Assembly: GCA_028286905.1 (NCBI GenBank)
Contig: JAQBQP010000002.1
Coordinates: 1-54,970, forward strand
Length of the DNA: 54,970 bases
Source: Candidatus Doudnabacteria bacterium
GTDB lineage: Bacteria; Patescibacteriota; Doudnabacteria; UBA920; VMFF01
Direction: 5' to 3'
Shown here: positions 181 to 54,970 of the stretch, one piece after another
How the letters are laid out: each line of letters starts with the position of its first letter
Numbering within the stretch: position 1 is the first letter of the stretch
Program-made: the position numbers and the translations under genes
The notes under the pieces: model-generated
What the model was told of the DNA's origin: nothing
The model's input: the letters and a program-made list of their open reading frames with translations, nothing else
The model's database searches: none

Positions 181-285
181 AAATCAAGTAGAATCCACCA
201 GCAACTATGGAGATTTTCAGTAGGAGAAAGACTAACGTGTTCGTCTAGAAGGCCGGAGACAGTAATGTTGATGGCCTTTCTCTTT
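181..285 (+). ncRNA. Candidate ~105-nt small RNA between the extended -10 promoter and a family-1 hairpin terminator
   Basis: Promoter at 166-174 and terminator at 249-285. Bases 190-250 resemble 3430-3478. Only a 13-codon ORF is present. Confidence 0.3.
249..285 (+). terminator. Family-1 structured hairpin terminator (AAGGCCG-GA-GAC-AGTAAT-GTT-GA-TGGCCTT + TTTCTCTTT)
   Basis: Stem with a tandem GA/GA internal loop. Differences from the other copies are G-U compatible. Confidence 0.65.
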
Positions 286-2101: not shown

Positions 2102-2671
2102 ATGCTTCGCGAGAACATTCTGTTGTGGAAAAATCATGACCGACCTTGGGCAACCACCGGGGTGATGTTCGTGGAAGTTGACGGAGAATGGAAAGCCGAG
2201 ATTTCACGTGCTTGTGCGGTAACCAGCAAAGGAAAAGGGTGCCTAGACATTCGTCTGAGTTTTCCAAAGCCCTCACCCGGCCGCCCTTTCTACTCTCGTT
2301 TCGAGTCGCTCAGCGAGGGGGGGCGTAAGTATTGGACCCACTACATGAACGAGCTGCAGCAGCGGGCAACCGCAGCTGCGCAGCAAAAGTTGTCAGGCAT
2401 TCTTCGGACGGAGCGAGCGCGAGTAAGCTGTGTGGGAAGCCAAGGCGAAACTTTCCACTACGAGATTGTCTTCTCCGCTAAACCCAGGGAGAATCTCTCT
2501 GACACGGCGATGAAGCTGTTCGTTCTAGCTCTGCAGGCTTTGGGTGTAGAGGACTGGTCCAAAGTGCCTGAGCCCAAGGCTGATTACCGCTTGGTCATGG
2601 AAGAGCAAGATAGAAAAAAGTTGGCACGATTCGCGAAGGATTTGGCGAAGAAGCACTACCCAGTTCGATAA
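2102..2671 (+). CDS. GC-rich orphan protein, 189 aa (island 1)
   Basis: Long ORF in ~60% GC DNA with a purine-rich SD (AAGGGA) 4 nt upstream. The 5' UTR has two hairpins, one with a UUCG loop (2067-2080). No motif recognised. Confidence 0.55.
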   Translation: MLRENILLWKNHDRPWATTGVMFVEVDGEWKAEISRACAVTSKGKGCLDIRLSFPKPSPGRPFYSRFESLSEGGRKYWTHYMNELQQRATAAAQQKLSGILRTERARVSCVGSQGETFHYEIVFSAKPRENLSDTAMKLFVLALQALGVEDWSKVPEPKADYRLVMEEQDRKKLARFAKDLAKKHYPVR

Positions 2672-2695
2672 ATCACCTCTAACAGCCGAGGGTTC

Positions 2696-3016
2696 ATGGA
2701 GTGCGCCATATGCTACAAGGGTGAAGGGCATTGGGCGCACTGTCCCTTGCACCCTGACAACGTTCGGAAAAGGGATGGTCGCTGTCGGCTGTGTTGGGAG
2801 TTTGTCCATTCACCCGCCTGTCCGTCGGTGGTGGGTGATGGTTCTCCCGAGAAGCAAGAGTGGATTAATTTTTATCTCGCTTCTCTCAATGACACCGCCC
2901 TTCCTGAATCCCGGCTGCTACCTCCCGATGTGAGGCAGTGTGCGATGGCGCTGGGTGCTGTACACGGTGTTGAGAAAACACAGTCGGATTCCGACGGGGA
3001 GGGGCTGTGTAGTTAA
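2696..3016 (+). CDS. GC-rich Cys/His-rich small protein, 106 aa (possible zinc-binding)
   Basis: CxxC...HxxHC...CxxC...C pattern in the first 45 aa. SD GAGGG. Lies 24 nt after the previous ORF. Confidence 0.5.
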   Translation: MECAICYKGEGHWAHCPLHPDNVRKRDGRCRLCWEFVHSPACPSVVGDGSPEKQEWINFYLASLNDTALPESRLLPPDVRQCAMALGAVHGVEKTQSDSDGEGLCS

Positions 3017-3032: not shown

Positions 3033-3089
3033 GCGCTTAAATGCGCGCGAAGGGGCCGGAGACAGAAATGTCGACGGCCTTTTCTCTTT
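3033..3089 (+). terminator. Family-1 3' module: GCGC hairpin + GGCCGGAGACAGAAATGTCGACGGCC hairpin + TTTTCTCTTT
   Basis: Same module as at 6834-6887 and 15367-15405. Confidence 0.7.
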
Positions 3090-5564: not shown

Positions 5565-5601
5565 AAGGCCGGAGACAGTAATGTCGACGGCCTTTTCTTT
5601 T
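5565..5601 (+). terminator. Family-1 hairpin terminator after an AT-rich host gene
   Basis: AAGGCCGGAGACAGTAATGTCGACGGCCTT followed by TTCTTTT. Confidence 0.7.
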
Positions 5602-6200: not shown

Positions 6201-6764
6201 ATGCTTATTGTAGAATCCAAGCGCCGAGTTCAAGTGCGGACTCGTGTCATGCAGATCCTAGTACGTGAGATGTCTTCTCGTCCTGCGAATGCTGTAACTA
6301 GAAATGTTACTGTTTGGGTATCACCCGATGTGCTAGTGAATTTGGGTGGATATGGTGATCTGCAGGAGTGGGTGTTCGAGGTGCGAACGCTCAGCTTCTT
6401 TTGGGAACTGATAAGAAAAGGTTTTGCGCCCACGGGGTGTTCTCCCGACCTTAATATTCTGGTGCTTTCCGAGGCGATCGAAAACAAACTTGTTCTCACC
6501 TTTGATTGGGAGGTGCGGGATGCTGCTGGGTATAGGAGAGTCGGCGAGGCTCAGGCACCCGGCTCCTACGGAATCTTTGCAAGCCAAAGAGGGGAACTTC
6601 TTCTCTATAAGAGGGTAACGGCAGGGTTGTCGGAAGCATTGCAACGGCGTCTCAATGAAAAAGCCCGAGCAGTGCGCGAAGCTTTGAACCGGGAAAATGT
6701 TGCGGAGGCGTTGTGTCAGCTGAAACATCTTGAGCTTGCTATTGATGCGGTCCCTCTGGAATAA
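6201..6764 (+). CDS. GC-rich orphan protein, 187 aa (island 2)
   Basis: SD AGGAG 6 nt upstream of the start. The C-terminus looks coiled-coil-like. No motif recognised. Confidence 0.5.
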   Translation: MLIVESKRRVQVRTRVMQILVREMSSRPANAVTRNVTVWVSPDVLVNLGGYGDLQEWVFEVRTLSFFWELIRKGFAPTGCSPDLNILVLSEAIENKLVLTFDWEVRDAAGYRRVGEAQAPGSYGIFASQRGELLLYKRVTAGLSEALQRRLNEKARAVREALNRENVAEALCQLKHLELAIDAVPLE

Positions 6765-6833: not shown

Positions 6834-6887
6834 GCGCTTTGCGCGCGAAAAGGCCGGAGACAGAAATGTCGACGGCCTTTTCTCTTT
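6834..6887 (+). terminator. Family-1 3' module (GCGC hairpin + GGCCGGAGAC...GTCGACGGCC hairpin + T-tract)
   Basis: Near-identical to 3033-3089. Confidence 0.7.
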
Positions 6888-7018: not shown

Positions 7019-7024
7019 ACTCTA

Positions 7025-7455
7025 TAGTTTCGCAGGGCACTGGTATCTTGGTGCTCGCACCCCACATTAATATGGTGCTGCCATATCACTCGTGATTTAC
7101 CAAAGGTTTGAGACGCTGCAGAGTTTGCACCTCGCTCAGACTTGCGTTTGGAGAGCCTGACTCTCTAGTGCGGGTAGTTTTTTGTAGGAAGGAGGAAACG
7201 TTACACAGAAACAGTCTGGAATTAGAAAAGCTTGGGTTCGACTCCCTCGCGCTGGTCTTACTGGAAGTTCCTACTGCGTAGGATAGGTTGGGAGACTTTG
7301 AAGCCTTGCTCCGGCAAGTGCTGAGTCGCGGATGAAATACCACCCTGTAGGGGCTGACCCCATTGTTGCTTACGAAGAGCAATGGTTCAGAGGATTCTGT
7401 GTAACCTTCTTCCTTCGCGCGGAACCATCATCTTGGTTCCGCGCGTTTCTTTTTT
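7025..7455 (+). ncRNA. gcRNA-B: ~430-nt GC-rich non-coding RNA candidate
   Basis: Has its own promoter and a family-3 terminator. No plus-strand ORF respects the terminator. Contains a T-loop-like GGTTCGACTCC at 7235-7245. Confidence 0.45.
7417..7455 (+). terminator. Family-3 terminator (GCGCGGAACCA / TGGTTCCGCGC + T-tract)
   Basis: 11-bp stem. Other copies lie at 11673-11709 and 13021-13059. Confidence 0.75.
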
Positions 7456-9674: not shown

Positions 9675-10043
9675 ATGAAGGAAGTATTTATTTTCCTTGC
9701 GGGAGCCCTGACGGTGGTGGTGCTCTGTCTCGTAAGAGAAGTAACGCACAACTCCGTTGATGCGCGCTTCGCTCGTCTTCGAGAAGAGTTCAAGAGACAC
9801 ATTGGTCGCCCGGTGGAGGTTTTCAATAGCGACCCCACAGGCACGCTGTATCGGGTGATCAGCGTCGGCGACGATCACGCTGTGCTCGACGGTGGAAATG
9901 GTCGCGGCCCGATCATGTATCAATTCGCGTGCATGGCGGGAGTAAAGCCGCGGTACCTGGTTTCCAAGGGGAAAATCATTCCTACCGTGGGAAAAGGTGA
10001 AGCTCCGCTGATGGCGCGGTTGCTTTCTGGGGTAGGCAGATAG
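9675..10043 (+). CDS. GC-rich membrane-anchored orphan protein, 122 aa (island 3)
   Basis: Strong SD AGGAGG 6 nt upstream. N-terminal TM helix FIFLAGALTVVVLCLV. Confidence 0.55.
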   Translation: MKEVFIFLAGALTVVVLCLVREVTHNSVDARFARLREEFKRHIGRPVEVFNSDPTGTLYRVISVGDDHAVLDGGNGRGPIMYQFACMAGVKPRYLVSKGKIIPTVGKGEAPLMARLLSGVGR

Positions 10044-10083: not shown

Positions 10084-10322
10084 AAGTAATAAATCAAAAA
10101 AAGTAGTAAATCAAAAAGAAGGGCCGCGAGCTCAGGTTAAGCCAACGTGCTAAACGCCGTTTGATCAACGGGGGACCTGAAGTAGTGGAATGAAAGTTTT
10201 TCTTTTGAACAGGTATTCTGTGGTGATCCACAACTTGGTTACTAAGTAAGTAGCTGGGGGAATATCTCTCAGGAGTATGTTCTGAGGGGCGCTAGGTCAT
10301 ATTGACTAGCGCCCTCTTTGTT
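10084..10322 (+). ncRNA. gcRNA-C: ~240-nt non-coding RNA candidate with a 2 x 17-nt A-rich tandem repeat at its 5' end
   Basis: Repeat units at 10085-10101 and 10102-10118. Ends in a 9-bp terminator stem. No ORF. Confidence 0.4.
10287..10322 (+). terminator. Terminator (GGGCGCTAG / CTAGCGCCC + TCTTTGTT)
   Basis: 9-bp GC-rich stem. Confidence 0.7.
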
Positions 10323-10365
10323 ATATAACATCCCTTGTATCCTACTGTTAATTGTCGTATGCAGC

Positions 10366-10402
10366 AGTCGCCGAAAGGCGGCTTTTTTGTTATGCTTCGA
10401 AT
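10366..10402 (+). promoter_or_regulatory. Composite GAAA-loop terminator + extended -10 (TGtTATGCT, 10388-10396) placed 6 nt before the galE ATG (leaderless)
   Basis: The -10 ends at 10396 and the ATG is at 10403. Confidence 0.6.
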
Positions 10403-11383
10403 ATGAAAATACTAGTCACAGGCGGCGCAGGCTATATTGGCAGCGTTGTTGCTGAGACTTTAATAAATACGGGCTATGAAGTTATCGTTGTAGATAACTT
10501 TTTTGGTGATGAAAAAAGCCCTATCAATCCAAAAATTAAATTGATAAAGGGTGACATTGGCGACCTTGAAATTTTACGAAGGATCTTCGAAGAAAACGAT
10601 ATTGATGCTGTAATGCACTTAGCAGCGTTCATTGAGGTGGAAGAGTCAATGCGCTTGCCACAAAAATATTTTGAAAATAATTACGAAAAACCGCTTCGAT
10701 TGTTAGAAGCAATGCGTAAGGCAAGGACAAAGCTTTTAATTTTTTCCTCAACTGCTGCGGTATACGGAATTCCCAATAGTTCTCCGATTAAGGAGACTGA
10801 TTTAACTAATCCGATCAACCCTTATGGAGAAAGTAAACTTAAATTTGAAAAAGCGTTATTTGATGAACAACAAAAGTACGGACTAAAGTACGTTGCATTG
10901 CGATACTTTAATGCGGCCGGAGCAACCCCAGAACATGGCGTGATGGGGTCTCACCAAACACATTTGATATCTGTCGCCATGCAAGTTGCGACAGGAGAGC
11001 GGGATAGTATAAAACTTTATGGGAATGACTATCCTACTAAAGATGGTACGTGCATAAGAGACTATGTTCATGTTCAAGATATTGCCAGTGCGCACTTGGT
11101 GGTTTTAAATTTTTTAAAGACTCAGACTTCGCCCGAAGCAAATAAATTTACTGATAATGTCTATAATGTAGGTTCAGGCCAGGGATATTCAAATAAAGAA
11201 GTGCTTGATGAAATACAAAAAATTTCTGGTAAAAAATTAAATATTGTTCTCGCCGAACGTCGGCTTGGCGATCCCCCAGCACTTTTGGCGGACATATCTA
11301 AAATATCAGAATTAGGATGGGAGGCAGAACACTCAGGCTTAATAAATATTATTAAAACTGCATGGGGTTGGAAGAAGGGATAG
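10403..11383 (+). CDS. galE: UDP-glucose 4-epimerase
   Basis: MKILVTGGAGYIGS NAD-binding motif and the YGESK catalytic YxxxK. I prefer the ATG at 10403 over the TTG at 10352, which lies within the terminator. Confidence 0.9.
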   Translation: MKILVTGGAGYIGSVVAETLINTGYEVIVVDNFFGDEKSPINPKIKLIKGDIGDLEILRRIFEENDIDAVMHLAAFIEVEESMRLPQKYFENNYEKPLRLLEAMRKARTKLLIFSSTAAVYGIPNSSPIKETDLTNPINPYGESKLKFEKALFDEQQKYGLKYVALRYFNAAGATPEHGVMGSHQTHLISVAMQVATGERDSIKLYGNDYPTKDGTCIRDYVHVQDIASAHLVVLNFLKTQTSPEANKFTDNVYNVGSGQGYSNKEVLDEIQKISGKKLNIVLAERRLGDPPALLADISKISELGWEAEHSGLINIIKTAWGWKKG

Positions 11384-11390
11384 TTGCTTG

Positions 11391-11408
11391 TCGATGGCTT
11401 TTCTCTTT
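11391..11408 (+). repeat. Truncated family-1 module (3' arm only: TCGATGGCTTTTCTCTTT)
   Basis: It follows TAGTTGC, which contains the galE stop. The 5' arm of the hairpin is deleted relative to 15343-15405. Confidence 0.55.
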
Positions 11409-11409
11409 G

Positions 11410-11438
11410 TTGACAACACAGGCAAAGAAATATATTCT
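11410..11438 (+). promoter_or_regulatory. Promoter TTGACA-N17-TATTCT (island 4)
   Basis: -35 at 11410-11415 and -10 at 11433-11438. Confidence 0.6.
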
Positions 11439-11460
11439 AAGTTATCCATCTTCTGATGAG

Positions 11461-11649
11461 ATGGCAGACACTCAAATGGAGGATTCTCGGATGGTGTTAG
11501 CTATCGCGATGAGTGCATCACAGTGGGCTCGACTGCACCCGCCAACCCTGCTCGGCCAGACAATTGGACTGGCCATGCTATTTGGCCCAGTGCTTCTGGT
11601 CCTGCTGTTCGAGCATCTTCGCTCTGGGAGGCAGCAGCGGGTGGCGTAG
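11461..11649 (+). CDS. Possible 62-aa hydrophobic peptide inside gcRNA-D
   Basis: ATG without an SD. One TM-like segment (TIGLAMLFGPVLLVLLF). Mutually exclusive with a purely non-coding reading of this region. Confidence 0.2.
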   Translation: MADTQMEDSRMVLAIAMSASQWARLHPPTLLGQTIGLAMLFGPVLLVLLFEHLRSGRQQRVA

Positions 11650-11672
11650 CACCTGACGCGGAGGCTCAGTGT

Positions 11673-11709
11673 GCGCGGAACAATCATCTTGGTTCCGCGC
11701 TTTTCTTTT
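11673..11709 (+). terminator. Family-3 terminator copy 2
   Basis: GCGCGGAAC ... GTTCCGCGC followed by TTTTCTTTT. Confidence 0.7.
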
Positions 11710-11748
11710 AATGCCTATCCTTTGAATCACAATTTGTATAGGAGGGTG

Positions 11749-12198
11749 ATGACAATGTCTGTATTGCTCATGTCCCTGATAACACCAGTTCGTGCAAAGA
11801 ACACCGATCTTGTCCCTACATATTGGACGGTAGAGATTGATCGTTTGGAAGGTGAGGTAGACCTCGCTAATCTCGACTACTCTTCTTGCCCCGTGCAGAA
11901 CGGCGAGACCTGTATCAATGGCGACACTATGCTCGAACGGTCGGCGGCGTCGGATGTCTGTGGTAGTCTCGGCTTCGCAGCTGCACTATTCATGGCACAG
12001 AAAAACGGAAAGGATATCTTTCCCGTCGAGTCTCGTGGTAAGCATGATTTCTTAATGCCGCGAACTGTTTTGATCGATGACACTCGCCGACGCCGCATGG
12101 CTCGTTTCGGCTGGAGCGGTAAGCGTTGGGGGTTCAGTTTTTGTTGGTTGGGCTACGGTTTCCTGCCCAATACTCGGTTTGTTCGTCCCGCGAGGTAG
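11749..12198 (+). CDS. GC-rich orphan protein with a signal-peptide-like N-terminus, ~149 aa (island 4)
   Basis: SD GGAGGG lies upstream. The start could be ATG 11749 or ATG 11755. N-terminus MTMSVLLMSLITPVRA; several Cys residues. Confidence 0.45.
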   Translation: MTMSVLLMSLITPVRAKNTDLVPTYWTVEIDRLEGEVDLANLDYSSCPVQNGETCINGDTMLERSAASDVCGSLGFAAALFMAQKNGKDIFPVESRGKHDFLMPRTVLIDDTRRRRMARFGWSGKRWGFSFCWLGYGFLPNTRFVRPAR

Positions 12199-12253
12199 GC
12201 TAAGTTATTGTAGAGAGAAGCAAGCGCACAAATTCCCTCAACACGAGAGCGCA

Positions 12254-12715
12254 ATGGATAACAAGCCTGAAGCACTTGTATGCGTCAAGGATGAGCAAGC
12301 TTCCGCAGTACGAGATAAGGTTCGGCAAGATCGGGCGCGTTTGTTGGCGGGCATGTTTTCCGAAGCCCAACGCCTCGTGCGAGATCAACAAACCAATAGG
12401 GCTTCGTGCCTATTGGGCGTCATGCATCAGATTGCTCAAGAACTTGCAGCAATACTCAACACTGAAGTGTTCTCTCCTCAGAACACCCACCGAGCCCGCT
12501 TGTTTGTCATATGTGGGAGATACTATTATGTGTATGACAAGATGGATTCGCCTTGGCAACAAGATCGAACGGTGGGTGAGGAGGATCTAGAACATAAAGG
12601 CTATCTCGTGGCAACCTTCATGGGCAATCATAACGAAGTGGTTAGCCTCATTGGTATCGCTACAAGGGAGCTGAAGATCACGCAGGTGTATGTCTATCAT
12701 TCAAGTCCGCGTTGA
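12254..12715 (+). CDS. GC-rich orphan protein, ~153 aa (island 4)
   Basis: This is the first in-frame ATG that does not overlap the previous ORF. The SD is weak. Confidence 0.4.
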   Translation: MDNKPEALVCVKDEQASAVRDKVRQDRARLLAGMFSEAQRLVRDQQTNRASCLLGVMHQIAQELAAILNTEVFSPQNTHRARLFVICGRYYYVYDKMDSPWQQDRTVGEEDLEHKGYLVATFMGNHNEVVSLIGIATRELKITQVYVYHSSPR

Positions 12716-14772: not shown

Positions 14773-15345
14773 ATGTTTGAGACCAGACTGAATTTGGAAG
14801 AGCGGTTGAGCATGGCGAACATCGCTGGGACCGAAGCGTTCTATCTCAGTGCGCAGGGGCCGGCGAATACCGTTGCTCGGAAGCTCGAGGAAACGCATCG
14901 CTGGCGGCAGGTGAAGGAGTGGTTGCCGAAACCGGAGCTGGATCTGCTAGTAGCAAAGGTTGAAGGATTCAGGCTACTGCGGTCTGCGGCATTCACCAAC
15001 TACTTCTCGGTCGCCGATGTATTGGCGATCATTCTGCACTTCGGCCTTAGCAAAAGCCCCATTCCGCAGAAGAAGTTGTTCGCAAAGAACTACGGAGAGA
15101 ATTGGCCGATTCCTGAAGCCGAAAAGTCTCAGACCGTCAGTCTGCAGACCTTGAGCAATATCGGCGCCGGGCTAGCCAATGCTTCTCTGGTTCGGGAGCA
15201 TGTCGTTGATGTGCAGAAGGCCGCGTCTCTGGAGAACGCTTTCAGAGTCTTGCTTAGGGAGGCGAGCAGTTTCCCGAGGAAGTCGCGCGGCGCCATTTCC
15301 GTCCGGAAGTTCAAGGCGGAAAGAAGTGCAAGGAGGAGTGTGTAG
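14773..15345 (+). CDS. GC-rich orphan protein, 190 aa (island 5)
   Basis: SD GAGGT 4 nt upstream of ATG 14773. The TTG at 14686 on the ORF track lies upstream of the promoter. Confidence 0.5.
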   Translation: MFETRLNLEERLSMANIAGTEAFYLSAQGPANTVARKLEETHRWRQVKEWLPKPELDLLVAKVEGFRLLRSAAFTNYFSVADVLAIILHFGLSKSPIPQKKLFAKNYGENWPIPEAEKSQTVSLQTLSNIGAGLANASLVREHVVDVQKAASLENAFRVLLREASSFPRKSRGAISVRKFKAERSARRSV

Positions 15346-15366: not shown

Positions 15367-15405
15367 AAGGCCGGAGACAGCAATGTCGACGGCCTTTTCT
15401 TATTT
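15367..15405 (+). terminator. Family-1 hairpin terminator
   Basis: AAGGCCGGAGACAGCAATGTCGACGGCCTT followed by a T-tract. Confidence 0.7.
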
Positions 15406-15433
15406 GTCGAGACGTTCTTGTTTTTGTTATAAT
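15404..15433 (+). promoter_or_regulatory. Promoter TTGTCG-N18(TGt)-TATAAT driving gcRNA-E
   Basis: -35 at 15404-15409 and -10 at 15428-15433. Confidence 0.6.
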
Positions 15434-15747
15434 TTCTTTAAGTCGTGGTAGGAACCCTGTCTCCTCACTGTTGCTATAAGCCGGTGCATACCAGAATCAC
15501 GATTTATTATCCCGATCCGACAGGGACCCTTGGCAGGGAGCAGTGCAAAGGGATAACTCACTGGCTGTAGCATACAGCTTTGCAATTAACCAGTTAAGTC
15601 GGGTTAAATGCCTGTGAGCGGAATTCTTCCTCCGAAAAACGAATGAGAGAGAAAGCTCATTCACCCCAGAGAATGTCGGACGGCCGGAATCGTCTGACCC
15701 ACGCCAATCAAAAATTTGTTAGACTCTGGGCACAAGAGAAGGCGGTA

Positions 15748-15820
15748 AACGCGTAACTCTAATTGGCCGAGTTATGTCTGCAGCTCTGGGGACATTGCGG
15801 GTTCGAATCCCGCACGTGTT
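15748..15820 (+). ncRNA. tRNA-like element (73 nt) with canonical acceptor, D and T arms and an aberrant anticodon arm
   Basis: Acceptor AACGCGT / ACGTGTT (7 bp, one G-U). D arm CTC-TAATTGGCC-GAG. T arm GCGGG-TTCGAAT-CCCGC. The middle arm is ATGTC/GACAT with a 12-nt loop and a 1-nt variable region. Confidence 0.45.
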
Positions 15821-15874
15821 TATGATGAGTAGCATACCCAATGTTCTGATGGAGGAACGTTAACTGTAGGTGTG

Positions 15875-15913
15875 AAGAGCCCGATGTTCATTTGTCGAGG
15901 CTCTTTTGTTTTG
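15875..15913 (+). terminator. Terminator of gcRNA-E (AAGAGCC / GGCTCTT + TTTGTTTTG)
   Basis: 7-bp stem with an inner extension, followed by a T-tract. Confidence 0.65.
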
Positions 15914-15945: not shown

Positions 15946-16635
15946 ATGAATAAAATTACTGCCTGGGTCAAAGATTACGCGCATATGTTTAATGTCGGTT
16001 CGCTGCAATATTTTAGAAGAACTCCGCCGAAACATTATTTAGGTCATGTTATTGACGGAAAAGTTCCGGTTATAATTTTGCCAGGAATTTTTGGTCGTTG
16101 GGCATTCTTAAAACCCATGGCGGATCATATTTCGTTGTTAGGACATCCAGTTTACATTGTTCCGAAGTTGGGAAATAATATTGGGGACATTCCTTCTTCT
16201 GCAAAAAAAGTAAAAGAAGTTATCGATGAAAATAATATAAAGAATGTTATCATTGTCGCGCATAGCAAGGGCGGCTTAATTAGTAAGTACTTGATGCTGC
16301 ATGAAGATCCGGAAAAACGGGTTAAAGGATTGATTGCGGTCGCCACTCCATTTCACGGTTCGTCGATTGGTAAATTAATACCAAGCTATTCAATTCAAGA
16401 ATTGTCGAGTGATAGCGATATTATTTTATACTTAGTTTCGCACACCGAGGCTGATAGTAAAATCGTTTCAATAATTCCGCAGTATGATAATCATGTTTGG
16501 CATGAAAAAGGAAGTCACCTAGATGGTGCTATGGCGAACATTGAAGTTGAAACCAGCGGACATCACAAAGTCTTAGATGATAAGAAGGTTTGGGATTTAG
16601 TAGTAGAATGGATTGAAAAAATTTCACGTTTATAA
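15946..16635 (+). CDS. Alpha/beta hydrolase (lipase/esterase-like)
   Basis: Nucleophile elbow VAHSKGG. I prefer the ATG at 15946 over the TTG at 15931. Confidence 0.7.
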   Translation: MNKITAWVKDYAHMFNVGSLQYFRRTPPKHYLGHVIDGKVPVIILPGIFGRWAFLKPMADHISLLGHPVYIVPKLGNNIGDIPSSAKKVKEVIDENNIKNVIIVAHSKGGLISKYLMLHEDPEKRVKGLIAVATPFHGSSIGKLIPSYSIQELSSDSDIILYLVSHTEADSKIVSIIPQYDNHVWHEKGSHLDGAMANIEVETSGHHKVLDDKKVWDLVVEWIEKISRL

Positions 16636-35615: not shown

Positions 35616-35641
35616 AAAAACCACCTAACGGTGGTTTTTTG
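35616..35641. terminator. Bidirectional terminator AAAAAA-CCACC-TAAC-GGTGG-TTTTTT (same stem as 32996-33021, loop inverted)
   Basis: Abuts the 3' end of tRNA-Ala. Confidence 0.6.
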
Positions 35642-35716
35642 GTGGACCCTGCCGGACTCGAACCGGCCGCCTCCTGCTTGCAAAGCAGGCGCTCTACCAG
35701 ATGAGCTAAGGGCCCT
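35641..35716 (-). tRNA. tRNA-Ala (anticodon UGC), CCA encoded
   Basis: Full 76-nt cloverleaf folded by hand, with the G3:U70 identity pair and anticodon loop TTTGCAA. Confidence 0.95.
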
Positions 35717-35744
35717 CATCTGTGACTCGAACATATTAACACGA

Positions 35745-35996
35745 TTATCTTGCGCCGCCAAGTACTGCTCTTAAAAGGTTGCCGACCAGATCTAGCATCC
35801 CAAAGAACCATAAGGCTCCTAGAATCGCTATTCCCAGGCCTACCAGCCGCCACCAGCTATAAGTGCCGGCAGCGAGACCTTTGCCTAAGTATTCTTCGGC
35901 GAAATCAAGCTTACCTGTGAAATTGGTGATTTCCACAGTGTAGCGCATCATCAGGATGCCTAAAACAACTAATAAAGGGCCAAGTATGAATCGCAT
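35745..35996 (-). CDS. Small 2-3 TM membrane protein encoded between tRNA-Ile and tRNA-Ala
   Basis: 83-aa ORF. Its ATG lies 5 nt after the tRNA-Ile CCA end, and its stop lies 28 nt before tRNA-Ala. Confidence 0.5.
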   Translation of the reverse strand: MRFILGPLLVVLGILMMRYTVEITNFTGKLDFAEEYLGKGLAAGTYSWWRLVGLGIAILGALWFFGMLDLVGNLLRAVLGGAR

Positions 35997-36001
35997 TTTT
36001 A

Positions 36002-36078
36002 TGGTGGGTGTGCGTGGACTCGAACCACGGACCTCTTCATTATCAGTGAAGTGCTCTAACCAACTGAGCTACACACCC
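36002..36078 (-). tRNA. tRNA-Ile (anticodon GAU), CCA encoded
   Basis: 77-nt cloverleaf folded by hand, with anticodon loop CTGATAA. Confidence 0.95.
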
Positions 36079-36241: not shown

Positions 36242-37252
36242 ATGTTTTTTTCGAACAAAAAAAGTGTATTAGGGATCGACATTGGCACGACCAATATAAA
36301 GATCGCGCAAATTACCACTGATGGTAATAAACACACTTTGGATACGTATGGTTTGGTAAATGCGGCATTCGAAATTGCAGAAAACAAAGAAGACGTAATA
36401 AAGAAAACCGCAATTGTCCTTAACAATTTGATGGAAAAAGCCGGAACAACTACCAGGAAAGTGGTTGCATCGCTTCCCAATTCGGCAGTATTTACTTCAG
36501 TTATTGAAATGCCGAAGCTCAGTGAAGGCGAGTTGAAAAGCGCAATTGAGTTTGAAGCGAAAAAATATGTGCCTTTACCGATTTCTGAGATGACATTATC
36601 CTGGTCAATTATAGAAACCAGCGCAGATGGTAAAAGCAAAGTTCTAATTACTGCAGTGCCCAATTCAATTCTCCGAAGTTATTTGCGAATCTTTGAATTA
36701 GCAAAACTTGAACCGATTGCTTTGGAAATTGAAGCGCTTGCTTTGATCAGATCTTTGGTTGGGGACAAAAAAGGGAGTATACTTTTAATAGATATCGGTG
36801 CGAAAGCAACGCACTTAAATATTGTTGAAGATGGCAACCTGCTATTAACTAGAAATGTACCGGTTGGCGGCGAAACAATTACCGCAAAGATTGCCGAGAG
36901 CCTAAAAATCAGTACTGCGCGCGCCGAACAGTTTAAAAAAGATTTTGGTTTGAACCAAGCAAGTTTAATTCCAGAAACAATCAAACCGATTCTGATGACG
37001 ATGAAGAGTGAAGCGCGACAGCTGCAGAGTATTTATCAGGCAAAGTCTAAAAAATTCGATCAAATCGTTATTGTCGGCGGTACCGCAAACTTACCAGGAT
37101 TGAATGAATTTTTTAACGACCTAGGCCCAACAATTTTAAATGGAGATCCTTTAACTAAACTTAGCTTCGCTCCCGAAATAAAAACAGTGCTTGCCCAATA
37201 TGCGACCAGTCTGACAGTTGCGATTGGCTTGGCCTTAAGAACAAACAAATAA
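36242..37252 (+). CDS. pilM: Type IV pilus assembly protein PilM (actin-like ATPase fold)
   Basis: The N-terminal phosphate-1 motif GIDIGTTNIKIA, together with the length and operon position. Confidence 0.85.
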   Translation: MFFSNKKSVLGIDIGTTNIKIAQITTDGNKHTLDTYGLVNAAFEIAENKEDVIKKTAIVLNNLMEKAGTTTRKVVASLPNSAVFTSVIEMPKLSEGELKSAIEFEAKKYVPLPISEMTLSWSIIETSADGKSKVLITAVPNSILRSYLRIFELAKLEPIALEIEALALIRSLVGDKKGSILLIDIGAKATHLNIVEDGNLLLTRNVPVGGETITAKIAESLKISTARAEQFKKDFGLNQASLIPETIKPILMTMKSEARQLQSIYQAKSKKFDQIVIVGGTANLPGLNEFFNDLGPTILNGDPLTKLSFAPEIKTVLAQYATSLTVAIGLALRTNK

Positions 37253-37253
37253 A

Positions 37254-37823
37254 ATGGCAGAAATCAACTTATTACAAAACACAAATAATCGAAACACTGA
37301 GAGAAAAACGCATAATGTTGTTAATACAATTGGCGTTATAGTTTTAGTGGTTGTGATTGGGCTGTACGGTTTGTTTTTTGTTTTAACAAATAAAGCAGAT
37401 GCAGATTCTAAAGCGCTTGCCGACCAGCAAGCTCAAATTCAACAGAAGATTTCCACTGGAACTCAATACCAGCAGCTAGTGAGCGCTCAAACCAAACTTA
37501 AAAGCATCGAAAGCCTTTTAAAAACGCACACTTATTGGTGTGAGATCTTGCCAAATTTGAGTGCCGATACATTAAAATCAACAACCTACGGGAAATTTAC
37601 GGCGAATGCTAACGGTAGCGCAACAATTTCCGGGAACGTTTCAAATTTTCAGAATTTAGATAAGTTGATTCAAGGTTACCAAGTTAATAATGACAAGTTT
37701 GTAAAAGATGTAAAATTGGTGAGTGTTTCTGCTGGCTCTGGAGAGAAAATTACCACCGGCTACACGCTCAATGTAACTTTTAATCAAGCAGTATTAGCTA
37801 AATACTCAAACACATGCAATTAA
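37254..37823 (+). CDS. pilN: PilN-like bitopic pilus assembly protein
   Basis: Single TM segment followed by a coiled coil. Position directly after pilM. Confidence 0.55.
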   Translation: MAEINLLQNTNNRNTERKTHNVVNTIGVIVLVVVIGLYGLFFVLTNKADADSKALADQQAQIQQKISTGTQYQQLVSAQTKLKSIESLLKTHTYWCEILPNLSADTLKSTTYGKFTANANGSATISGNVSNFQNLDKLIQGYQVNNDKFVKDVKLVSVSAGSGEKITTGYTLNVTFNQAVLAKYSNTCN

Positions 37824-38446
37824 CTCCTGCTCAAAAATCAAGATCCGGTGTCGGACTGTTCTTAATCTGCATTATCTTAGCGGTAGTGCTGACCTTTTTC
37901 TTGGTTTGGCCAAAGTACGGTCAATATAAAGATTCCTTAGCAGCAAAAGATAACAACCAACAGTCACTAGATTTAATAAAATCCCAACAGGCCCAGGTAA
38001 CAACGCTTTATTCTAAATTGCAGGCCAGCAGCGCAGATTTAAAAAAGATTGATGTTGCAATTCCCACTGGTGTCGACATCCCTGCCGTTTATGCCTATCT
38101 GGAATCGATGGCACAAAGCCTAAATCTTGGATCAATTACTTTGCAAGGTAAAGATGAAAATGAAGTACTAGATCAAGGGAATGTGGTTGGAGTATCAGGC
38201 GCCCCAGTAAGCGGTGGACCTACTTCGATTGGAACCGGGGCACCGAAATCAAATCTTCCCGCATCGCTTGGTGCTATTGATCTGACCATGACCGTTACTG
38301 GTTCTTATCAGAACTTTGTGACCTTCTTAGGGAAAATTCAAAACAGCCTAAGACTTATAGATGTTCAGAGTATTGATGTCACTTCCAGTGAGGGTAAGCC
38401 GGATCTATCTTTTAGTATTGCGATGAAAACTTATTATCAGAAATAA
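37814..38446 (+). CDS. pilO: PilO-like bitopic pilus assembly protein
   Basis: Single TM segment followed by a coiled coil. Assigned from operon position. Confidence 0.5.
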   Translation: MQLTPAQKSRSGVGLFLICIILAVVLTFFLVWPKYGQYKDSLAAKDNNQQSLDLIKSQQAQVTTLYSKLQASSADLKKIDVAIPTGVDIPAVYAYLESMAQSLNLGSITLQGKDENEVLDQGNVVGVSGAPVSGGPTSIGTGAPKSNLPASLGAIDLTMTVTGSYQNFVTFLGKIQNSLRLIDVQSIDVTSSEGKPDLSFSIAMKTYYQK

Positions 38447-38458
38447 TCGGAAAAGAAT

Positions 38459-38833
38459 ATGACCACAAAAGAAAAAAAAGAATATGGAATATTCGCGGTA
38501 CTACTTGTGATAACACTTGGAGTTATTTATTTTAATTTTCTAAAACCAAAGCCAGCTCCGCTTGCTTCGATTTCCGCGCTTCCTGCCGACGGAACTGCGC
38601 CTAGCGCAGGACCAGCAGCTGCAATTGCTAATGGTTCGGCGCCTTCAACAGGAGCAGATGTTGTGACAGCATCACCGGGGACTGCTGCTGCATCCGTTTC
38701 GTCGCTTTTGCCTAATGGATCAAGTTTGCCGGTAGATATTTTGCAACAAAAACCATTTTCAGATTTCAACCCACCGATTTATCCAGTAGTATTAAAAAGC
38801 GATGTAGGCTCAAGCAACGTATTCGGAAAATAA
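38459..38833 (+). CDS. Small bitopic protein with an Ala/Pro/Ser-rich periplasmic region (pilus-associated)
   Basis: 124-aa ORF. Assigned by context only. Confidence 0.4.
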   Translation: MTTKEKKEYGIFAVLLVITLGVIYFNFLKPKPAPLASISALPADGTAPSAGPAAAIANGSAPSTGADVVTASPGTAAASVSSLLPNGSSLPVDILQQKPFSDFNPPIYPVVLKSDVGSSNVFGK

Positions 38834-38836
38834 AAC

Positions 38837-40576
38837 ATGCCAGAAGCTCTAAAAACTGACAACTTTGAGACCTATTTAATAGATCAGGGCTTAATTACTC
38901 AAGCCTTGTACGATAAGTTAAAGGCTCAAAGCGTACAAACAAAAGACTCGGTGTTGAATATCATCACCAGTCAGAGAATAATTCCCGGAGAGACTTTGGC
39001 TAAAGCCAAAGCTGCTTTTTTAAATATACCTTTTATTTCCTTCATGGATAAAAAGGTCGATTTAAAAGTTTTAAATTTAATCCCTCAAGAAACCTATTCT
39101 TTCTACAAATTTTTTGCTTTTGAACATCAAGGGCAGAATTTAAAAATAGCGATTACCGACCCGACTAATATTTCTGCTTTGGAAGCGTTGGAATTTTTAT
39201 CAAAAAAACTTTCTTACTCAATTCAATTGTTTGTTACTGATGATGATAGCTATAACAAAGTTATGCGTCAGGGCAAAAATGTGGAAAAGGTAGTGGACGC
39301 GGCTTTAGCAAATATTGAAGCAACTGAAAAGATCCAAAAGAAGGCTGAGAAAGTAGAAAAACCAGAATTACAGGAACTAATTCAAGATGCGCCAATTTCT
39401 AAGATCGTCGATGTTATTTTAACAAATGCGATTGATGGCAATGCCTCGGATATTCATATCGAGCCAAATGATAAAAATTTACGGATCCGCTATCGCCAAG
39501 ATGGTATTTTGCACGTCGCCTTAGAGCTGCCAAAAACAGTGCAAACCGCAGTTGTTTCAAAAATAAAAATTCTTTCAAACTTAAAAATTGATGAATCACG
39601 TTTGCCGCAGGATGGACGTTTCCATTACGAAACCGAAAGTAAATCGGTAGATTTGCGTGTATCGATTTTACCGAACGTTAATGGCGAGAAGGTGGTTATG
39701 CGTATCTTGGATAAATCTACAAAAGCACCAACTTTGGAGCAGCTTGGATTTAGAGGTAAAGGTTTGGAATGGATTTTGGAAAACATGAAGGAAACACACG
39801 GAATCTTTTTGATCACTGGTCCAACCGGTTCTGGTAAGTCTACAACCTTATATTCCTTGCTGACCATGATTAACACCAACTTGGTTAACATTATTACCCT
39901 AGAAGATCCAGTAGAATATTTTATTCCAGGAGTTAACCAAACTCAGATCAATCCAGAAATTGGCCTCACTTTCTCTACCGGGCTACGCTCGATTCTGCGT
40001 CAAGATCCGAACATCATAATGGTGGGAGAAATTCGAGACAAAGAAACTGCGGAATTGGCAGTGCAAGCGGCGCTTACTGGCCACTTAGTATTCTCTACAC
40101 TGCACACAAACGACGCAATTGGCTCGCTACCGCGTTTAATTGACATGGGCATGGAACCATTCCTGCTTGCCGCTTCGATGAACGTCGTAGAAGCACAGCG
40201 TCTTTGCCGTAAAATTTGTCCGGATTGTAAGCACGAAGTACCGGTTATTCAACAAGTTAAGGATGATTTTACTGCTGCGTTAAAAGGCGTCAATGAAAAA
40301 GAACTCGATGGCTTAGATTTGAAAAACATGAAAATTTATGAAGGATCTGGCTGTGAAAAGTGCGGCAATACGGGCTATAAAGGCCGTATTGCGATTATTG
40401 AAGTGCTTCAGATCACTGATAATGTTCAAAATTTGATTCTGGAAAAGTCCTCTCCACAAGATATTGCCGCAGAAGCAGCAAAGATGGGGATGATTACTTT
40501 GCAACAAGATGGTATTATTAAGGTATTAAAAGGGGTGACCACTTACAGCGAGGTTGTTCGCGTAACTTCAGAATAA
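38837..40576 (+). CDS. pilB: Type IV pilus assembly ATPase PilB (GspE family)
   Basis: Walker A GPTGSGKST, Asp and His boxes, and the tetracysteine motif CPDC...CEKC. Confidence 0.9.
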   Translation: MPEALKTDNFETYLIDQGLITQALYDKLKAQSVQTKDSVLNIITSQRIIPGETLAKAKAAFLNIPFISFMDKKVDLKVLNLIPQETYSFYKFFAFEHQGQNLKIAITDPTNISALEALEFLSKKLSYSIQLFVTDDDSYNKVMRQGKNVEKVVDAALANIEATEKIQKKAEKVEKPELQELIQDAPISKIVDVILTNAIDGNASDIHIEPNDKNLRIRYRQDGILHVALELPKTVQTAVVSKIKILSNLKIDESRLPQDGRFHYETESKSVDLRVSILPNVNGEKVVMRILDKSTKAPTLEQLGFRGKGLEWILENMKETHGIFLITGPTGSGKSTTLYSLLTMINTNLVNIITLEDPVEYFIPGVNQTQINPEIGLTFSTGLRSILRQDPNIIMVGEIRDKETAELAVQAALTGHLVFSTLHTNDAIGSLPRLIDMGMEPFLLAASMNVVEAQRLCRKICPDCKHEVPVIQQVKDDFTAALKGVNEKELDGLDLKNMKIYEGSGCEKCGNTGYKGRIAIIEVLQITDNVQNLILEKSSPQDIAAEAAKMGMITLQQDGIIKVLKGVTTYSEVVRVTSE

Positions 40577-40583
40577 TAAAAAT

Positions 40584-40982
40584 ATGGAAAACACAAATAC
40601 TACTGGGTCAGCAAAAAAAATACTTTTGGTGGAAGACGAACCTTTTTTAAGCGGAATGTATCAAACCAAGTTAAAGCTCGAAGGATTTGATATTGAAGCG
40701 GCTAAGGATGGAGAAGAGGCACTCGAAAAAATCAAAGTCGGAGAATTCGGTTTGATCTTACTGGACATCATGATGCCAAAGTTAAATGGCTTCGAAGTTT
40801 TAAAAAGCATTCGGAAAGACAAGGATCCCGAAATTGCAAAAGTTCCGGTGCTAATGCTTACGAACCTTGGTCAAAAGAGCGACGTTGAACAAGGATTGTT
40901 GCTAGGTGCGAATGATTATATTATCAAAGCAAATTTTACTCCTGCTGAAGTAGTCGACAAAATAAATAAGTTTCTTGTTTAA
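40584..40982 (+). CDS. Single-domain response regulator (receiver only)
   Basis: LLVEDEP...LILLDIMMP...LTN...K receiver signature. Confidence 0.9.
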   Translation: MENTNTTGSAKKILLVEDEPFLSGMYQTKLKLEGFDIEAAKDGEEALEKIKVGEFGLILLDIMMPKLNGFEVLKSIRKDKDPEIAKVPVLMLTNLGQKSDVEQGLLLGANDYIIKANFTPAEVVDKINKFLV

Positions 40983-41005
40983 AATAAAAATTTTAAAATA
41001 CAAAT

Positions 41006-42082: not shown

Positions 42083-42085
42083 CCA

Positions 42086-53516: not shown

Positions 53517-53828
53517 TAGCTAAAAAATTTAAATCGAAATTGTGAACACATATTTACTGCCCAGGTCAGTTATACTTCGGGCCGGTAGAGGGCAGTAGTT
53601 ATGTGATCGTAATTCGCGAAACAGAGAATACGTCAGGTTCCTTCCCAACTGAATAGTGGTATCCGTAAATTTTCAATGATTAGCCGAAAATTTATGGAGT
53701 TGTAAATTCAATCAATTATAAGAGAGTAACTGAACAAAGTCCAAAGAAGTATCAAAGTAATTCCGCTGATTCAATAGCAGCGAGAATTGCAATCACAAAT
53801 TACTAGTTAATTACTAGAACTTGAAACA

Positions 53829-54970
<1,142 letters not shown>

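What the first reader, a model, noticed from the sequence alone, without database searches (positions are those of the whole stretch)
15404..15913. Island 5 RNA (gcRNA-E) carries a 73-nt tRNA-like module with a non-canonical anticodon arm
Inside the 470-nt gcRNA-E, bases 15748-15820 fold by hand into a tRNA-sized unit. It has a 7-bp acceptor stem (AACGCGT / ACGTGTT, one G-U) and a D arm with the GG loop (CTC-TAATTGGCC-GAG). It also has a perfect T arm with the universal T-loop (GCGGG-TTCGAAT-CCCGC). The anticodon position is occupied by a 5-bp stem (ATGTC/GACAT) with a 12-nt loop and a 1-nt variable region. The acceptor helix can be extended by 2-3 more pairs into the flanks. This is not a decodable tRNA. 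It could be a tRNA-like handle recognised by RNase P, the CCA-adding enzyme or an aminoacyl-tRNA synthetase. It could also be a decayed tRNA or att-site remnant marking past integration, or a decoy for tRNA-targeting factors.
Basis: partly seen in the sequence, partly recalled or inferred. Interest (0 to 1): 0.7.

Follow-up and report, generated by a model that had tools for sequence, protein, structure and literature searches.

The report
Orphan tRNA-like fold, unproven function
A 73-base stretch in a gene-free, GC-rich spacer of a tiny candidate-phyla-radiation bacterium copies the top half of a transfer RNA but cannot decode, and because it has no relatives anywhere I could search, I cannot tell whether it is a working tRNA mimic or a leftover of a tRNA gene.

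Summary
A permissive "T arm + 7/7 acceptor + D-like hairpin" scan finds only this site and the two real tRNAs; shuffled windows give 0.027 hits.

It is not a tRNA gene. ARAGORN and Rfam do not call it. A tRNA model built here scores it 23.4 bits, against 80-84 for the window's real tRNAs, at least 31 for tRNAs of relatives and at most 13 for noise. That score comes only from the acceptor stem and T arm. It has no anticodon loop, no U8, no encoded CCA and a 1-nt variable region.

The host stretch (15404-15913) has a promoter-like site, a terminator, no ORF over 55 aa and no codon periodicity. The neighbouring GC-rich "islands" are orphan protein genes of foreign composition, not RNAs.

No homologue turned up in GTDB genomes, JGI metagenomes, IMG/VR, phages, plasmids or Nomurabacteria loci, so covariation is untestable.

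Best guess: a tRNA-derived acceptor/T-arm mimic used as a processing or stability handle (0.35). A non-functional tRNA relic on acquired DNA is almost as likely (0.33).

The parts
15369..15403 (+). Terminator of the upstream orphan gene (14773-15345). It is one of five copies of the repeat GGCCGGAGACAGNAATGTCGACGGCC plus a T run.
15404..15433 (+). Promoter-like site: TTGTCG, 18 nt spacer, TG-TATAAT (10 of 12 matches, extended -10).
   Evidence: consensus match only, transcription not shown
15440..15913 (+). Putative ~470-nt noncoding transcript ('RNA-E'). GC is 0.45-0.52 against 0.24-0.31 in nearby native spacers. No ORF exceeds 55 aa and there is no codon periodicity.
   Evidence: (z -3.07)
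15664..15671 (+). CCCCAGAG, perfectly complementary to CUCUGGGG at 15784-15791. This is either a competitor of the cloverleaf or a long-range contact.
15675..15698 (+). 8-bp hairpin GUCGGACG/CGUCUGAC. Its left flank and 5' arm resemble the right half of the repeated terminator (AATGTCGACGGCC).
   Evidence: the resemblance is by eye
15745..15754 (+). Acceptor 5' strand AACGCGT (15748-54), plus a 3-nt extension GTA (15745-47).
15756..15772 (+). D-like arm: ACTC/GAGT stem with loop TAATTGGCC (A14, A15, G18, G19 present; U8 and A21 absent).
15774..15795 (+). Irregular hairpin in the anticodon position: ATGTC(T)/(G)GACAT, then two inner pairs and a GCUC loop. There is no 7-nt anticodon loop.
15796..15796 (+). 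Single 'variable-region' nucleotide U. It could form an A15:U48 Levitt-type pair.
   Evidence: inference
15797..15813 (+). T arm GCGGG-TTCGAAT-CCCGC. It matches the tmRNA/tRNA consensus at 16 of 17 positions (the other sits at a variable loop position) and has pair probability 1.0 in every context tested.
15814..15823 (+). Acceptor 3' strand ACGTGTT plus the extension TAT. No CCA is encoded.
15875..15913 (+). Terminator: AAGAGCC...GGCTCTT plus TTTTGTTTTG. It is a diverged member of the same terminator family.
   Evidence: (3' part z -3.75)

Best explanation
Bases 15748-15820 are a tRNA-derived mimic of the upper half of a tRNA. It has a 12-bp acceptor/T-arm coaxial helix and a D-loop/T-loop elbow. 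A non-decoding hairpin occupies the place of the anticodon arm. The unit lies near the 3' end of a ~470-nt noncoding transcript that belongs to recently acquired, foreign-composition DNA in a Nomurabacteria-like (candidate phyla radiation) genome.

Most likely mode of action (inferred, not shown): the module acts as a processing and stability handle. RNase P would recognise the acceptor/T-arm helix and elbow and cut at 15747/15748. That would release a ~310-nt 5' RNA and a ~73-nt tRNA-like RNA. The small RNA's 3' end would then be trimmed and possibly given a CCA. It is not aminoacylated and does not decode.

Shown: the sequence anatomy, its improbability by chance, its non-tRNA status, and the noncoding nature of the host stretch.
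Inferred: transcription, folding in vivo, cleavage, and any function.
For: - All four helices are intact, while the middle 35 nt are unalignable to tRNA. My tRNA model aligns only the acceptor and T arm (23.4 bits, model positions 1-74, with a 34-position skip).
- Neutral decay would not be expected to spare 31 nt perfectly while erasing the rest and still leave two hairpins of the right total length.
- The T arm is identical to the consensus. The D loop keeps G18 and G19, and an A15:U48 pair is possible.
- A chance origin is unlikely: 0.027 hits per shuffled window.
- The host stretch has a promoter-like site and a terminator, no ORF and flat codon-position GC. Its GC is about 20 points above native spacers, and it folds better than shuffles (z -2.1 to -3.75).
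- Precedent: M. smegmatis YrlA, whose tRNA-like module has a 7-bp acceptor stem, is cut by RNase P and receives CCA (PMC4201824).
Against: - It is a singleton. No homologue, paralogue or polymorphism was found, so there is no covariation or conservation.
- Core tRNA features are missing: A instead of U8, one linker nucleotide instead of two, C at position 21, and a 1-nt variable region.
- Leader-trailer pairing extends the acceptor to 10 bp, which usually hinders bacterial RNase P.
- Predicted folding in context prefers CCCCAGAG:CUCUGGGG and an extended T stem by 3.5-5.3 kcal/mol. Real tRNAs can fail the same test.
- No gene for a tRNA-handling protein was found among the window ORFs scanned.
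- The surrounding DNA looks recently acquired and may simply not have been purged yet.
Confidence: 0.35

Rival explanations
1. It is a non-functional relic of a tRNA gene that arrived with, or was trapped by, the foreign GC-rich DNA. The gene may have come from a mobile element or phage. The anticodon arm and variable loop were rearranged by small indels, and the rest has not yet decayed.
For: - The module sits at the edge of a block of orphan, foreign-composition genes (GC3 0.48-0.69 against 0.27-0.37 in native genes), and the gene tested has no homologue in 1.8-5.8 billion proteins.
- The hydrolase's conserved neighbours in all fetched relatives are missing here, so this is a rearranged spot.
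- Total length is exactly tRNA-like: 73 nt, with +5 in the loop, -4 in the variable region and -1 in the linker.
- U8, A21 and CCA are lost.
- Rfam tRNA scores below 15.8 bits.
- Nothing is conserved anywhere.
- The host stretch contains what looks like a decayed copy of the local terminator repeat (15672-15690), which hints at a patchwork of remnants.
Against: - Decay strong enough to erase the anticodon arm should also have hit the 31 nt of acceptor and T arm, yet these are perfect.
- No intact tRNA with the same T arm plus acceptor 3' strand exists in 185,579 species genomes.
- A 500-nt dead spacer with a strong promoter-like site is unusual in a streamlined genome. This is a weak argument.
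Confidence: 0.33
2. It is an attachment-site scar. The T arm and acceptor 3' strand would be the duplicated 3' end of a tRNA gene left by site-specific integration of the GC-rich DNA.
For: - The best-preserved part is the usual att core (T arm plus acceptor 3' strand).
- It lies at the boundary between foreign-composition DNA and a native gene.
Against: - No second copy of the 3' half exists in the window, even with 3 mismatches.
- No integrase or recombinase family turned up among the ORFs scanned against Pfam.
- The GC-rich genes are interspersed one by one among native genes, not arranged as one island.
- A scar would not carry a matching 5' acceptor strand and a D arm.
Confidence: 0.1
3. 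It is a functional tRNA-like ligand or decoy that works unprocessed inside the long RNA. It would bind a tRNA-recognising protein such as a modification enzyme, a toxin that acts on the acceptor end, EF-Tu or a nuclease. This would resemble the tRNA-like domain of bacterial Y RNAs.
For: - The anatomy matches the best explanation equally well.
- The acceptor helix continues into the flanks (10 bp), which fits an unprocessed, embedded domain.
- YrlA shows that such embedded mimics exist.
Against: - No Ro60/TROVE, Rtc or toxin gene was found nearby.
- There is no Rfam YrlA hit even at E up to 10.
- The topology differs from YrlA.
- It is a singleton.
Confidence: 0.12
4. It is a chance resemblance in GC-rich noncoding sequence.
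For:
- A relaxed T-arm definition gives 1.5 chance hits per window.
- A second, weak T-loop-like site at 7234-7246 is at noise level.
Against: - The joint pattern is expected 0.027 times per window under a permissive definition.
- The real T arm is all G-C with the exact consensus loop.
- The covariance model score is 10 bits above the best noise hit.
Confidence: 0.07

Closest known systems
tRNA-like domain of bacterial Y RNAs (YrlA; PMC4201824, bioRxiv 10.1101/312249)
   Same: - A tRNA mimic embedded in a longer bacterial ncRNA.
- The acceptor, D and T arms are mimicked, and the anticodon position is taken by something else.
- M. smegmatis YrlA, which has a 7-bp acceptor, is cut by RNase P and gets CCA.
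   Different: - In YrlA the anticodon-side stem continues into the Ro60-binding helix and the acceptor is capped. Here the acceptor side continues into the flanks and the anticodon side is capped.
- YrlA lies next to rsr. No Ro60 gene was found in this window.
- There is no Rfam hit to a Y RNA family.
- YrlA keeps the tRNA core tertiary pairs. Here U8 is missing.
mascRNA / menRNA tRNA-like 3' modules of MALAT1 and NEAT1 (Rfam RF01684; PMC8457004)
   Same: - A tRNA-like unit near the 3' end of a long ncRNA that serves as an RNase P / RNase Z processing signal.
- A degenerate anticodon arm.
- Leader-trailer pairing next to the acceptor.
   Different: - These are eukaryotic (vertebrate).
- The Rfam match here is only 14.3 bits, E 7.5, over 15782-15820, which is noise.
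- No processing has been shown here.
tRNA-like domain of tmRNA (Rfam RF00023)
   Same: The T arm matches the tmRNA model consensus at 16 of its 17 positions, the other being a variable loop position (15.8 bits).
   Different: - Only the T arm matches.
- In tmRNA the acceptor is formed by the RNA's two ends around an mRNA-like domain with pseudoknots and a tag reading frame.
- G3:U70 and CCA are required in tmRNA. None of this is present, and ARAGORN finds no tmRNA.
RNase P-matured regulatory RNAs of mobile elements (phage P1/P7 C4 antisense RNA; P4 CI RNA). Cited from memory, not checked here.
   Same: A small RNA on accessory DNA whose precursor carries an acceptor/T-arm-like helix that host RNase P uses for maturation.
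   Different: - Those RNAs are not full cloverleaf mimics.
- There is no sequence relation.
- No phage or plasmid match exists for this locus.
tRNA pseudogenes and tRNA-gene att remnants at genomic-island borders
   Same: - tRNA-derived sequence at the edge of foreign-composition DNA.
- The 3' half is preserved best.
   Different: - The full set of four helices is intact.
- There is no partner repeat, and no integrase turned up among the ORFs scanned.
- No identical tRNA 3' end exists in GTDB genomes.

Membership tests
tRNA (Rfam RF00005; canonical decoding tRNA) | Reaches covariance-model or ARAGORN thresholds | tested here: not met
   - No ARAGORN call at default or -ps settings.
- Rfam tRNA is not listed, so it scores below the 15.8-bit clan winner, against a gathering score of 29.
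- My own tRNA model gives 23.4 bits, against 80-84 for the window's tRNAs and at least 31 for tRNAs of relatives.
tRNA (Rfam RF00005; canonical decoding tRNA) | 7-bp acceptor stem stacked on a 5-bp T stem with a TΨC-type loop (T54, T55, C56, A58; G53:C61) | tested here: met
   AACGCGT/ACGTGTT and GCGGG-TTCGAAT-CCCGC.
tRNA (Rfam RF00005; canonical decoding tRNA) | 5-bp anticodon stem with a 7-nt loop (U33, purine 37) and a 4-5-nt or long variable region | tested here: not met
   The loop is 12 nt (or an extended irregular hairpin with a GCUC loop), and the variable region is 1 nt.
tRNA (Rfam RF00005; canonical decoding tRNA) | Core invariants U8, A14, G18, G19, A21 | tested here: inconclusive
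   A14, A15, G18 and G19 are present. Position 8 is A, the linker is shortened to one nucleotide if the D stem has 4 bp, and position 21 is C.
tRNA (Rfam RF00005; canonical decoding tRNA) | 3' CCA, which both real tRNA genes in this window encode | tested here: not met
   The tRNA-Ile and tRNA-Ala genes end in CCA. The module is followed by TATGATG.
tmRNA (RF00023 and permuted forms) | Acceptor formed by the RNA's ends, G3:U70, a tag reading frame and pseudoknots | tested here: not met
   - Only model positions 347-363 match.
- No ARAGORN tmRNA call, even at -ps80.
- The G-U pair is at 4:69.
- No plausible tag ORF by inspection.
YrlA / bacterial Y RNA | Ro60-binding helix continuing from the anticodon-side stem, and a neighbouring rsr (TROVE) gene | tested here: not met
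   - No Rfam Y RNA hit at E up to 10.
- No TROVE or Rtc family among the window ORFs scanned.
- The topology is opposite.
mascRNA-type processing module | RNase P cleavage at the 5' border, RNase Z cleavage and CCA addition at the 3' border | not testable with these tools
   This needs end mapping or in vitro cleavage. The Rfam RF01684 match is noise (14.3 bits, E 7.5).
tRNA-gene att remnant of an integrated element | A direct repeat of the tRNA 3' end at the other island border, plus an integrase | tested here: not met
   One copy only within 55 kb, allowing up to 3 mismatches. No integrase family in the Pfam scans. The rest of the 540-kb contig was not available.

The most novel reading that the evidence does not exclude
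A candidate-phyla-radiation bacterium uses a mascRNA-like arrangement. A non-decoding tRNA mimic embedded in a lineage-specific ~470-nt ncRNA recruits RNase P, and then 3' trimming and CCA addition. This matures a ~310-nt RNA and releases a stable 73-nt tRNA-like RNA. It would be a bacterial counterpart of MALAT1/mascRNA processing, carried on horizontally acquired DNA.
Probability: 0.22. Interest if true: 0.65.

Novelty: new variant of a known kind. Interest (0 to 1): 0.35.

Why it matters
If the module is functional, it would add a third bacterial class of embedded tRNA mimic, after tmRNA and YrlA. It has a different topology: the acceptor side is open to the host RNA and the anticodon side is capped. 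It would also be in a candidate-phyla-radiation genome, where almost nothing is known about noncoding RNA. A cheap experiment follows directly: RNase P cleavage and end mapping.

If it is a relic, it marks how foreign DNA entered a streamlined genome. It would also be a useful example of a near-cloverleaf that standard tRNA finders rightly reject.

Either way, the re-reading corrects the context. The neighbouring "GC-rich RNAs" are orphan protein genes of foreign composition.

Tried and rejected
1. A standard or relaxed tRNA or tmRNA call. ARAGORN default, -ps and intron modes find nothing. The -ps80 setting calls the site, but it also makes 23 calls in 55 kb with only 2 real tRNAs, so I discarded it.
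2. Rfam. Nothing at gathering scores. At E up to 10 only the T arm matches, via the tmRNA model.
3. Group I intron, T-box, RNase P RNA, 6S and Y RNA. No Rfam signal.
4. Homologues by DNA. No match in the phage or plasmid collections, IMG/VR, GTDB genomes or JGI metagenomes. The gapped D-loop to T-arm pattern found only ordinary tRNAs (Ser, Cys, Leu, Val, Asp and others) in unrelated phyla.
5. Synteny. Fourteen hydrolase loci were fetched from Nomurabacteria-like relatives (63-79 % aa identity). In the eleven with upstream sequence another gene abuts the hydrolase, so there is no spacer and no RNA there. A filter-off search of five of them with my tRNA model finds only genuine tRNAs.
6. Paralogues in the window. 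None by blastn or nhmmer.
7. Polymorphism. The only other assembly of this locus (Logan SRR13312974) is identical.
8. An inversion between the module and the tRNA-Ile/Ala pair next to pilM. Rejected: the window's pil cluster is only 27 % identical to the syntenic one of relatives, and the relatives' neighbouring genes are absent.
9. A split or intron-containing tRNA using CCCCAGAG as the anticodon-stem 5' strand. Rejected: there is no acceptor 5' strand or D arm upstream of it.
10. Function of the upstream orphan protein. Pfam, PADLOC and PHROGs give nothing. A full phmmer search gives only a spurious plectin-repeat hit. AlphaFold gives pLDDT 45, so I ran no fold search.
11. A concatenated query of the other island ORFs returned nothing, not even the window's own proteins. 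That search is uninformative and I do not use it. tblastn of the island ORFs against phages found no match.
12. In-context thermodynamics as a test against the cloverleaf. Rejected as decisive, because real tRNAs (window tRNA-Ala, L004 Arg and Val) also lose the acceptor helix in the same test.

Full report
**What is there.**
- Acceptor: AACGCGT (15748-54) pairs 7/7 with ACGTGTT (15814-20), including one G-U. The helix can run three pairs further into the flanks.
- D arm: CTC/GAG, extendable to ACTC/GAGT, with the loop TAATTGGCC.
- Anticodon position: a hairpin ATGTC/GACAT with a 12-nt loop.
- Variable region: a single T.
- T arm: GCGGG-TTCGAAT-CCCGC.

On its own the 73-mer has the cloverleaf as its minimum-energy fold (-26.4 kcal/mol, z -2.37). 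ViennaRNA extends the "anticodon" hairpin to about nine layers around a GCUC tetraloop. It is therefore a capped helix, not an anticodon loop.

**Is it more than chance?** I scanned both strands of the window for a 5-bp T stem with a TTCRANY loop, directly followed by a 7-nt strand that pairs 7/7 with a segment 38-74 nt upstream, plus a D-like hairpin with GG.
- Three sites qualify: tRNA-Ile, tRNA-Ala and this module.
- 300 dinucleotide shuffles give 0.027 sites per window.

I also built a covariance model from 35 genuine type-I tRNAs.
- The two real tRNAs of the window score 84 and 80 bits.
- The module scores 23.4 bits (rough E 1e-4), end to end at 15748-15822.
- The best noise hit scores 13.1 bits.
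- In 87 kb from relatives, every hit is a real tRNA, scoring 31-78 bits.

The module therefore sits between noise and real tRNAs. Its alignment shows why: only the acceptor stem and T arm are matched, and the 34 model positions of the D and anticodon arms are skipped.

**It is not a tRNA gene.**
- ARAGORN (default, -ps, intron modes) and Rfam at gathering scores make no call.
- At E up to 10, Rfam reports only the 17-nt T arm through the tmRNA model (15.8 bits). Any tRNA-model match is lower.
- ARAGORN at 80 % thresholds does call it "tRNA-?(gctc)". That setting makes 23 calls in the window, only 2 of them real tRNAs, so the call carries no weight.
- Position 8 is A, position 21 is C, and the variable region is one nucleotide.
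- There is no CCA, although both real tRNA genes of the window encode CCA.

**The host stretch.** Bases 15404-15913 lie between a copy of a locally repeated terminator (15369-15403) and a diverged copy of the same terminator (15875-15913).
- A promoter-like TTGTCG-18-TG-TATAAT sits at 15404-15433.
- No ORF exceeds 55 aa.
- GC is equal at the three codon positions in every frame.
- GC is 0.45-0.52, against 0.24-0.31 in nearby native spacers.
- The pieces fold better than shuffles (z -2.1, -2.4 and -3.75). Coding controls give -0.1 and -0.5.

A noncoding transcript of about 470 nt is therefore plausible, but it has not been shown.

**Context.** The window comes from a Nomurabacteria-like member of the candidate phyla radiation. 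The adjacent alpha/beta hydrolase is 63-79 % identical to the proteins whose loci I fetched, and the ones that carry a source name are from Candidatus Nomurabacteria.

The other GC-rich "islands" of the first 16 kb are not RNAs.
- Their long + strand ORFs have coding periodicity (GC1 > GC2 < GC3), with GC3 of 0.48-0.69 against 0.27-0.37 in native genes.
- The gene just upstream (14773-15345) has a GAGG ribosome-binding site.
- That gene has no homologue in 5.8 billion clustered proteins, nor in a full phmmer pass over 1.8 billion representatives.
- None of the island ORFs hits Pfam, PADLOC or PHROGs.

The module thus lies at the right-hand edge of recently acquired orphan DNA. The spot is also rearranged. 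In every relative with upstream sequence (L002-L004, L029-L038), another gene abuts the hydrolase with no spacer, and the neighbours checked (L002, L029, L035) are absent from this window.

**No comparative evidence exists.** I found no homologue of the stretch or of the module in any of these:
- phage or plasmid collections;
- IMG/VR;
- 185,579 GTDB species genomes;
- JGI metagenomes.

A looser D-loop to T-arm pattern retrieved only ordinary tRNAs of unrelated phyla. There is no paralogue in the window. The only other assembly of the locus is identical. Covariation, the usual arbiter, cannot be applied.

**Competing fold.** With flanks included, the predicted ensemble abandons the acceptor helix.
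- CCCCAGAG (15664-71) pairs with CUCUGGGG (15784-91), and the T stem extends into the acceptor 3' strand.
- Forcing the cloverleaf costs 3.5-5.3 kcal/mol.
- As a control, genuine tRNAs with flanks gave mixed results. Some keep the acceptor, but tRNA-Ala of this window and two tRNAs of a relative lose it entirely.

This test cannot decide the matter. The T arm is stable in every context.

**Interpretation.** The pattern is a perfect 12-bp acceptor/T-arm stack, a T loop and a GG D loop for the elbow, and a possible A15:U48 pair. Only the decoding half is replaced by a capped helix. This is the pattern seen in functional tRNA mimics. The acceptor/T-arm stack is also the part of tRNA that RNase P, the CCA-adding enzyme, TruB and TrmA recognise (established knowledge). 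[quoted passage not shown]

Uniform neutral decay would not be expected to erase 35 nt while sparing 31. I therefore rank a processing or stability handle first, at 0.35. The evidence against it is real:
- It is a singleton on apparently young foreign DNA.
- It has lost U8.
- It has leader-trailer pairing.
- It has no partner protein gene among the ORFs scanned.

A non-functional relic of an element-borne tRNA gene is nearly as likely, at 0.33. The remaining readings rank lower:
- An unprocessed ligand or decoy: 0.12.
- A classical att scar: 0.10. It is disfavoured because there is no second copy of the 3' half, no integrase turned up in the Pfam scans, and the 5' half is present.
- Pure chance: about 0.07.

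**Comparison with known systems.** It works most like the tRNA-like modules of YrlA and of MALAT1/mascRNA, but it is a member of neither.
- There is no Rfam signal for either family, and no Ro60 gene was found.
- The topology is opposite to YrlA.
- It shares only a T arm with tmRNA.

I file it as a new variant of a known kind (embedded tRNA mimic or tRNA-derived element), with modest interest because nothing beyond the anatomy can be shown.

Noticed in passing
window 2102-3016, 6201-6764, 9675-10043, 11362-12715, 14773-15345: The GC-rich 'islands' are orphan protein-coding genes of foreign composition, not RNAs. GC3 is 0.48-0.69 against 0.27-0.37 in native genes, with the periodicity GC1 > GC2 < GC3. 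They are inserted one by one between native AT-rich genes, and several have promoter-like and terminator-like sites at their ends. The one tested deeply (14773-15345) has no homologue in billions of proteins.
   Followed up: partly
window 251-276, 3054-3079, 5567-5592, 6852-6877, 15369-15394; diverged copy at 15875-15913: A repeated terminator hairpin GGCCGGAGACAGNAATGTCGACGGCC (GGCCG/CGGCC stem, tandem G-A, GACA/TGTC stem, GNAA loop). It has five near-identical copies, all in the first 16 kb and none in the other 39 kb. It has no match in JGI metagenomes or IMG/VR. It follows both native and foreign-composition genes. Two further terminator families also repeat (7417/11673/13021 and 9537/10366/13495).
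   Followed up: partly
window 7020-7450 and 10085-10390: Two further stretches without a long + strand ORF, bounded by promoter-like sites and terminators. They fold much better than shuffles (z -3.6 and -4.0) and have no Rfam match. The first contains a weak T-loop-like GGGTTCGACTCCC at 7234-7246; my tRNA model gives 12.2 bits (E 0.25), which is noise level.
   Followed up: partly
window 15664-15671 and 15784-15791: A perfect 8-nt complementarity (CCCCAGAG / CUCUGGGG) links the upstream part of the RNA to the loop of the module's 'anticodon' hairpin. A near-repeat, CUCUGGG, lies at 15725-15731. It could be an alternative fold, a switch or a long-range tertiary contact.
   Followed up: partly
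window 35640-36078 (- strand): tRNA-Ile(GAT) and tRNA-Ala(TGC), the pair usually found in the rRNA spacer, stand alone without flanking rRNA genes. A 286-nt spacer separates them and holds an 83-aa ORF (35745-35996, - strand) that looks like a small membrane protein. Both tRNA genes encode CCA.
   Followed up: no
window 53820-54970: A 23S rRNA gene starts here with no 16S gene upstream in the window, so the rRNA genes are unlinked. It carries a large insertion of 141 nt where the bacterial model has 22 (around 54107-54247), plus smaller ones. This is typical of candidate-phyla-radiation rRNAs.
   Followed up: no
window 15946-16635, compared with loci L002-L004 and L029-L038: In Nomurabacteria relatives the hydrolase usually follows a phosphoribosyltransferase gene and a ~400-aa ORF, next to a type IV pilus operon. 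Here those neighbours are absent. The window's own pilus cluster (36242-43291) is only 27 % identical in PilM, so the hydrolase sits at a synteny break.
   Followed up: partly
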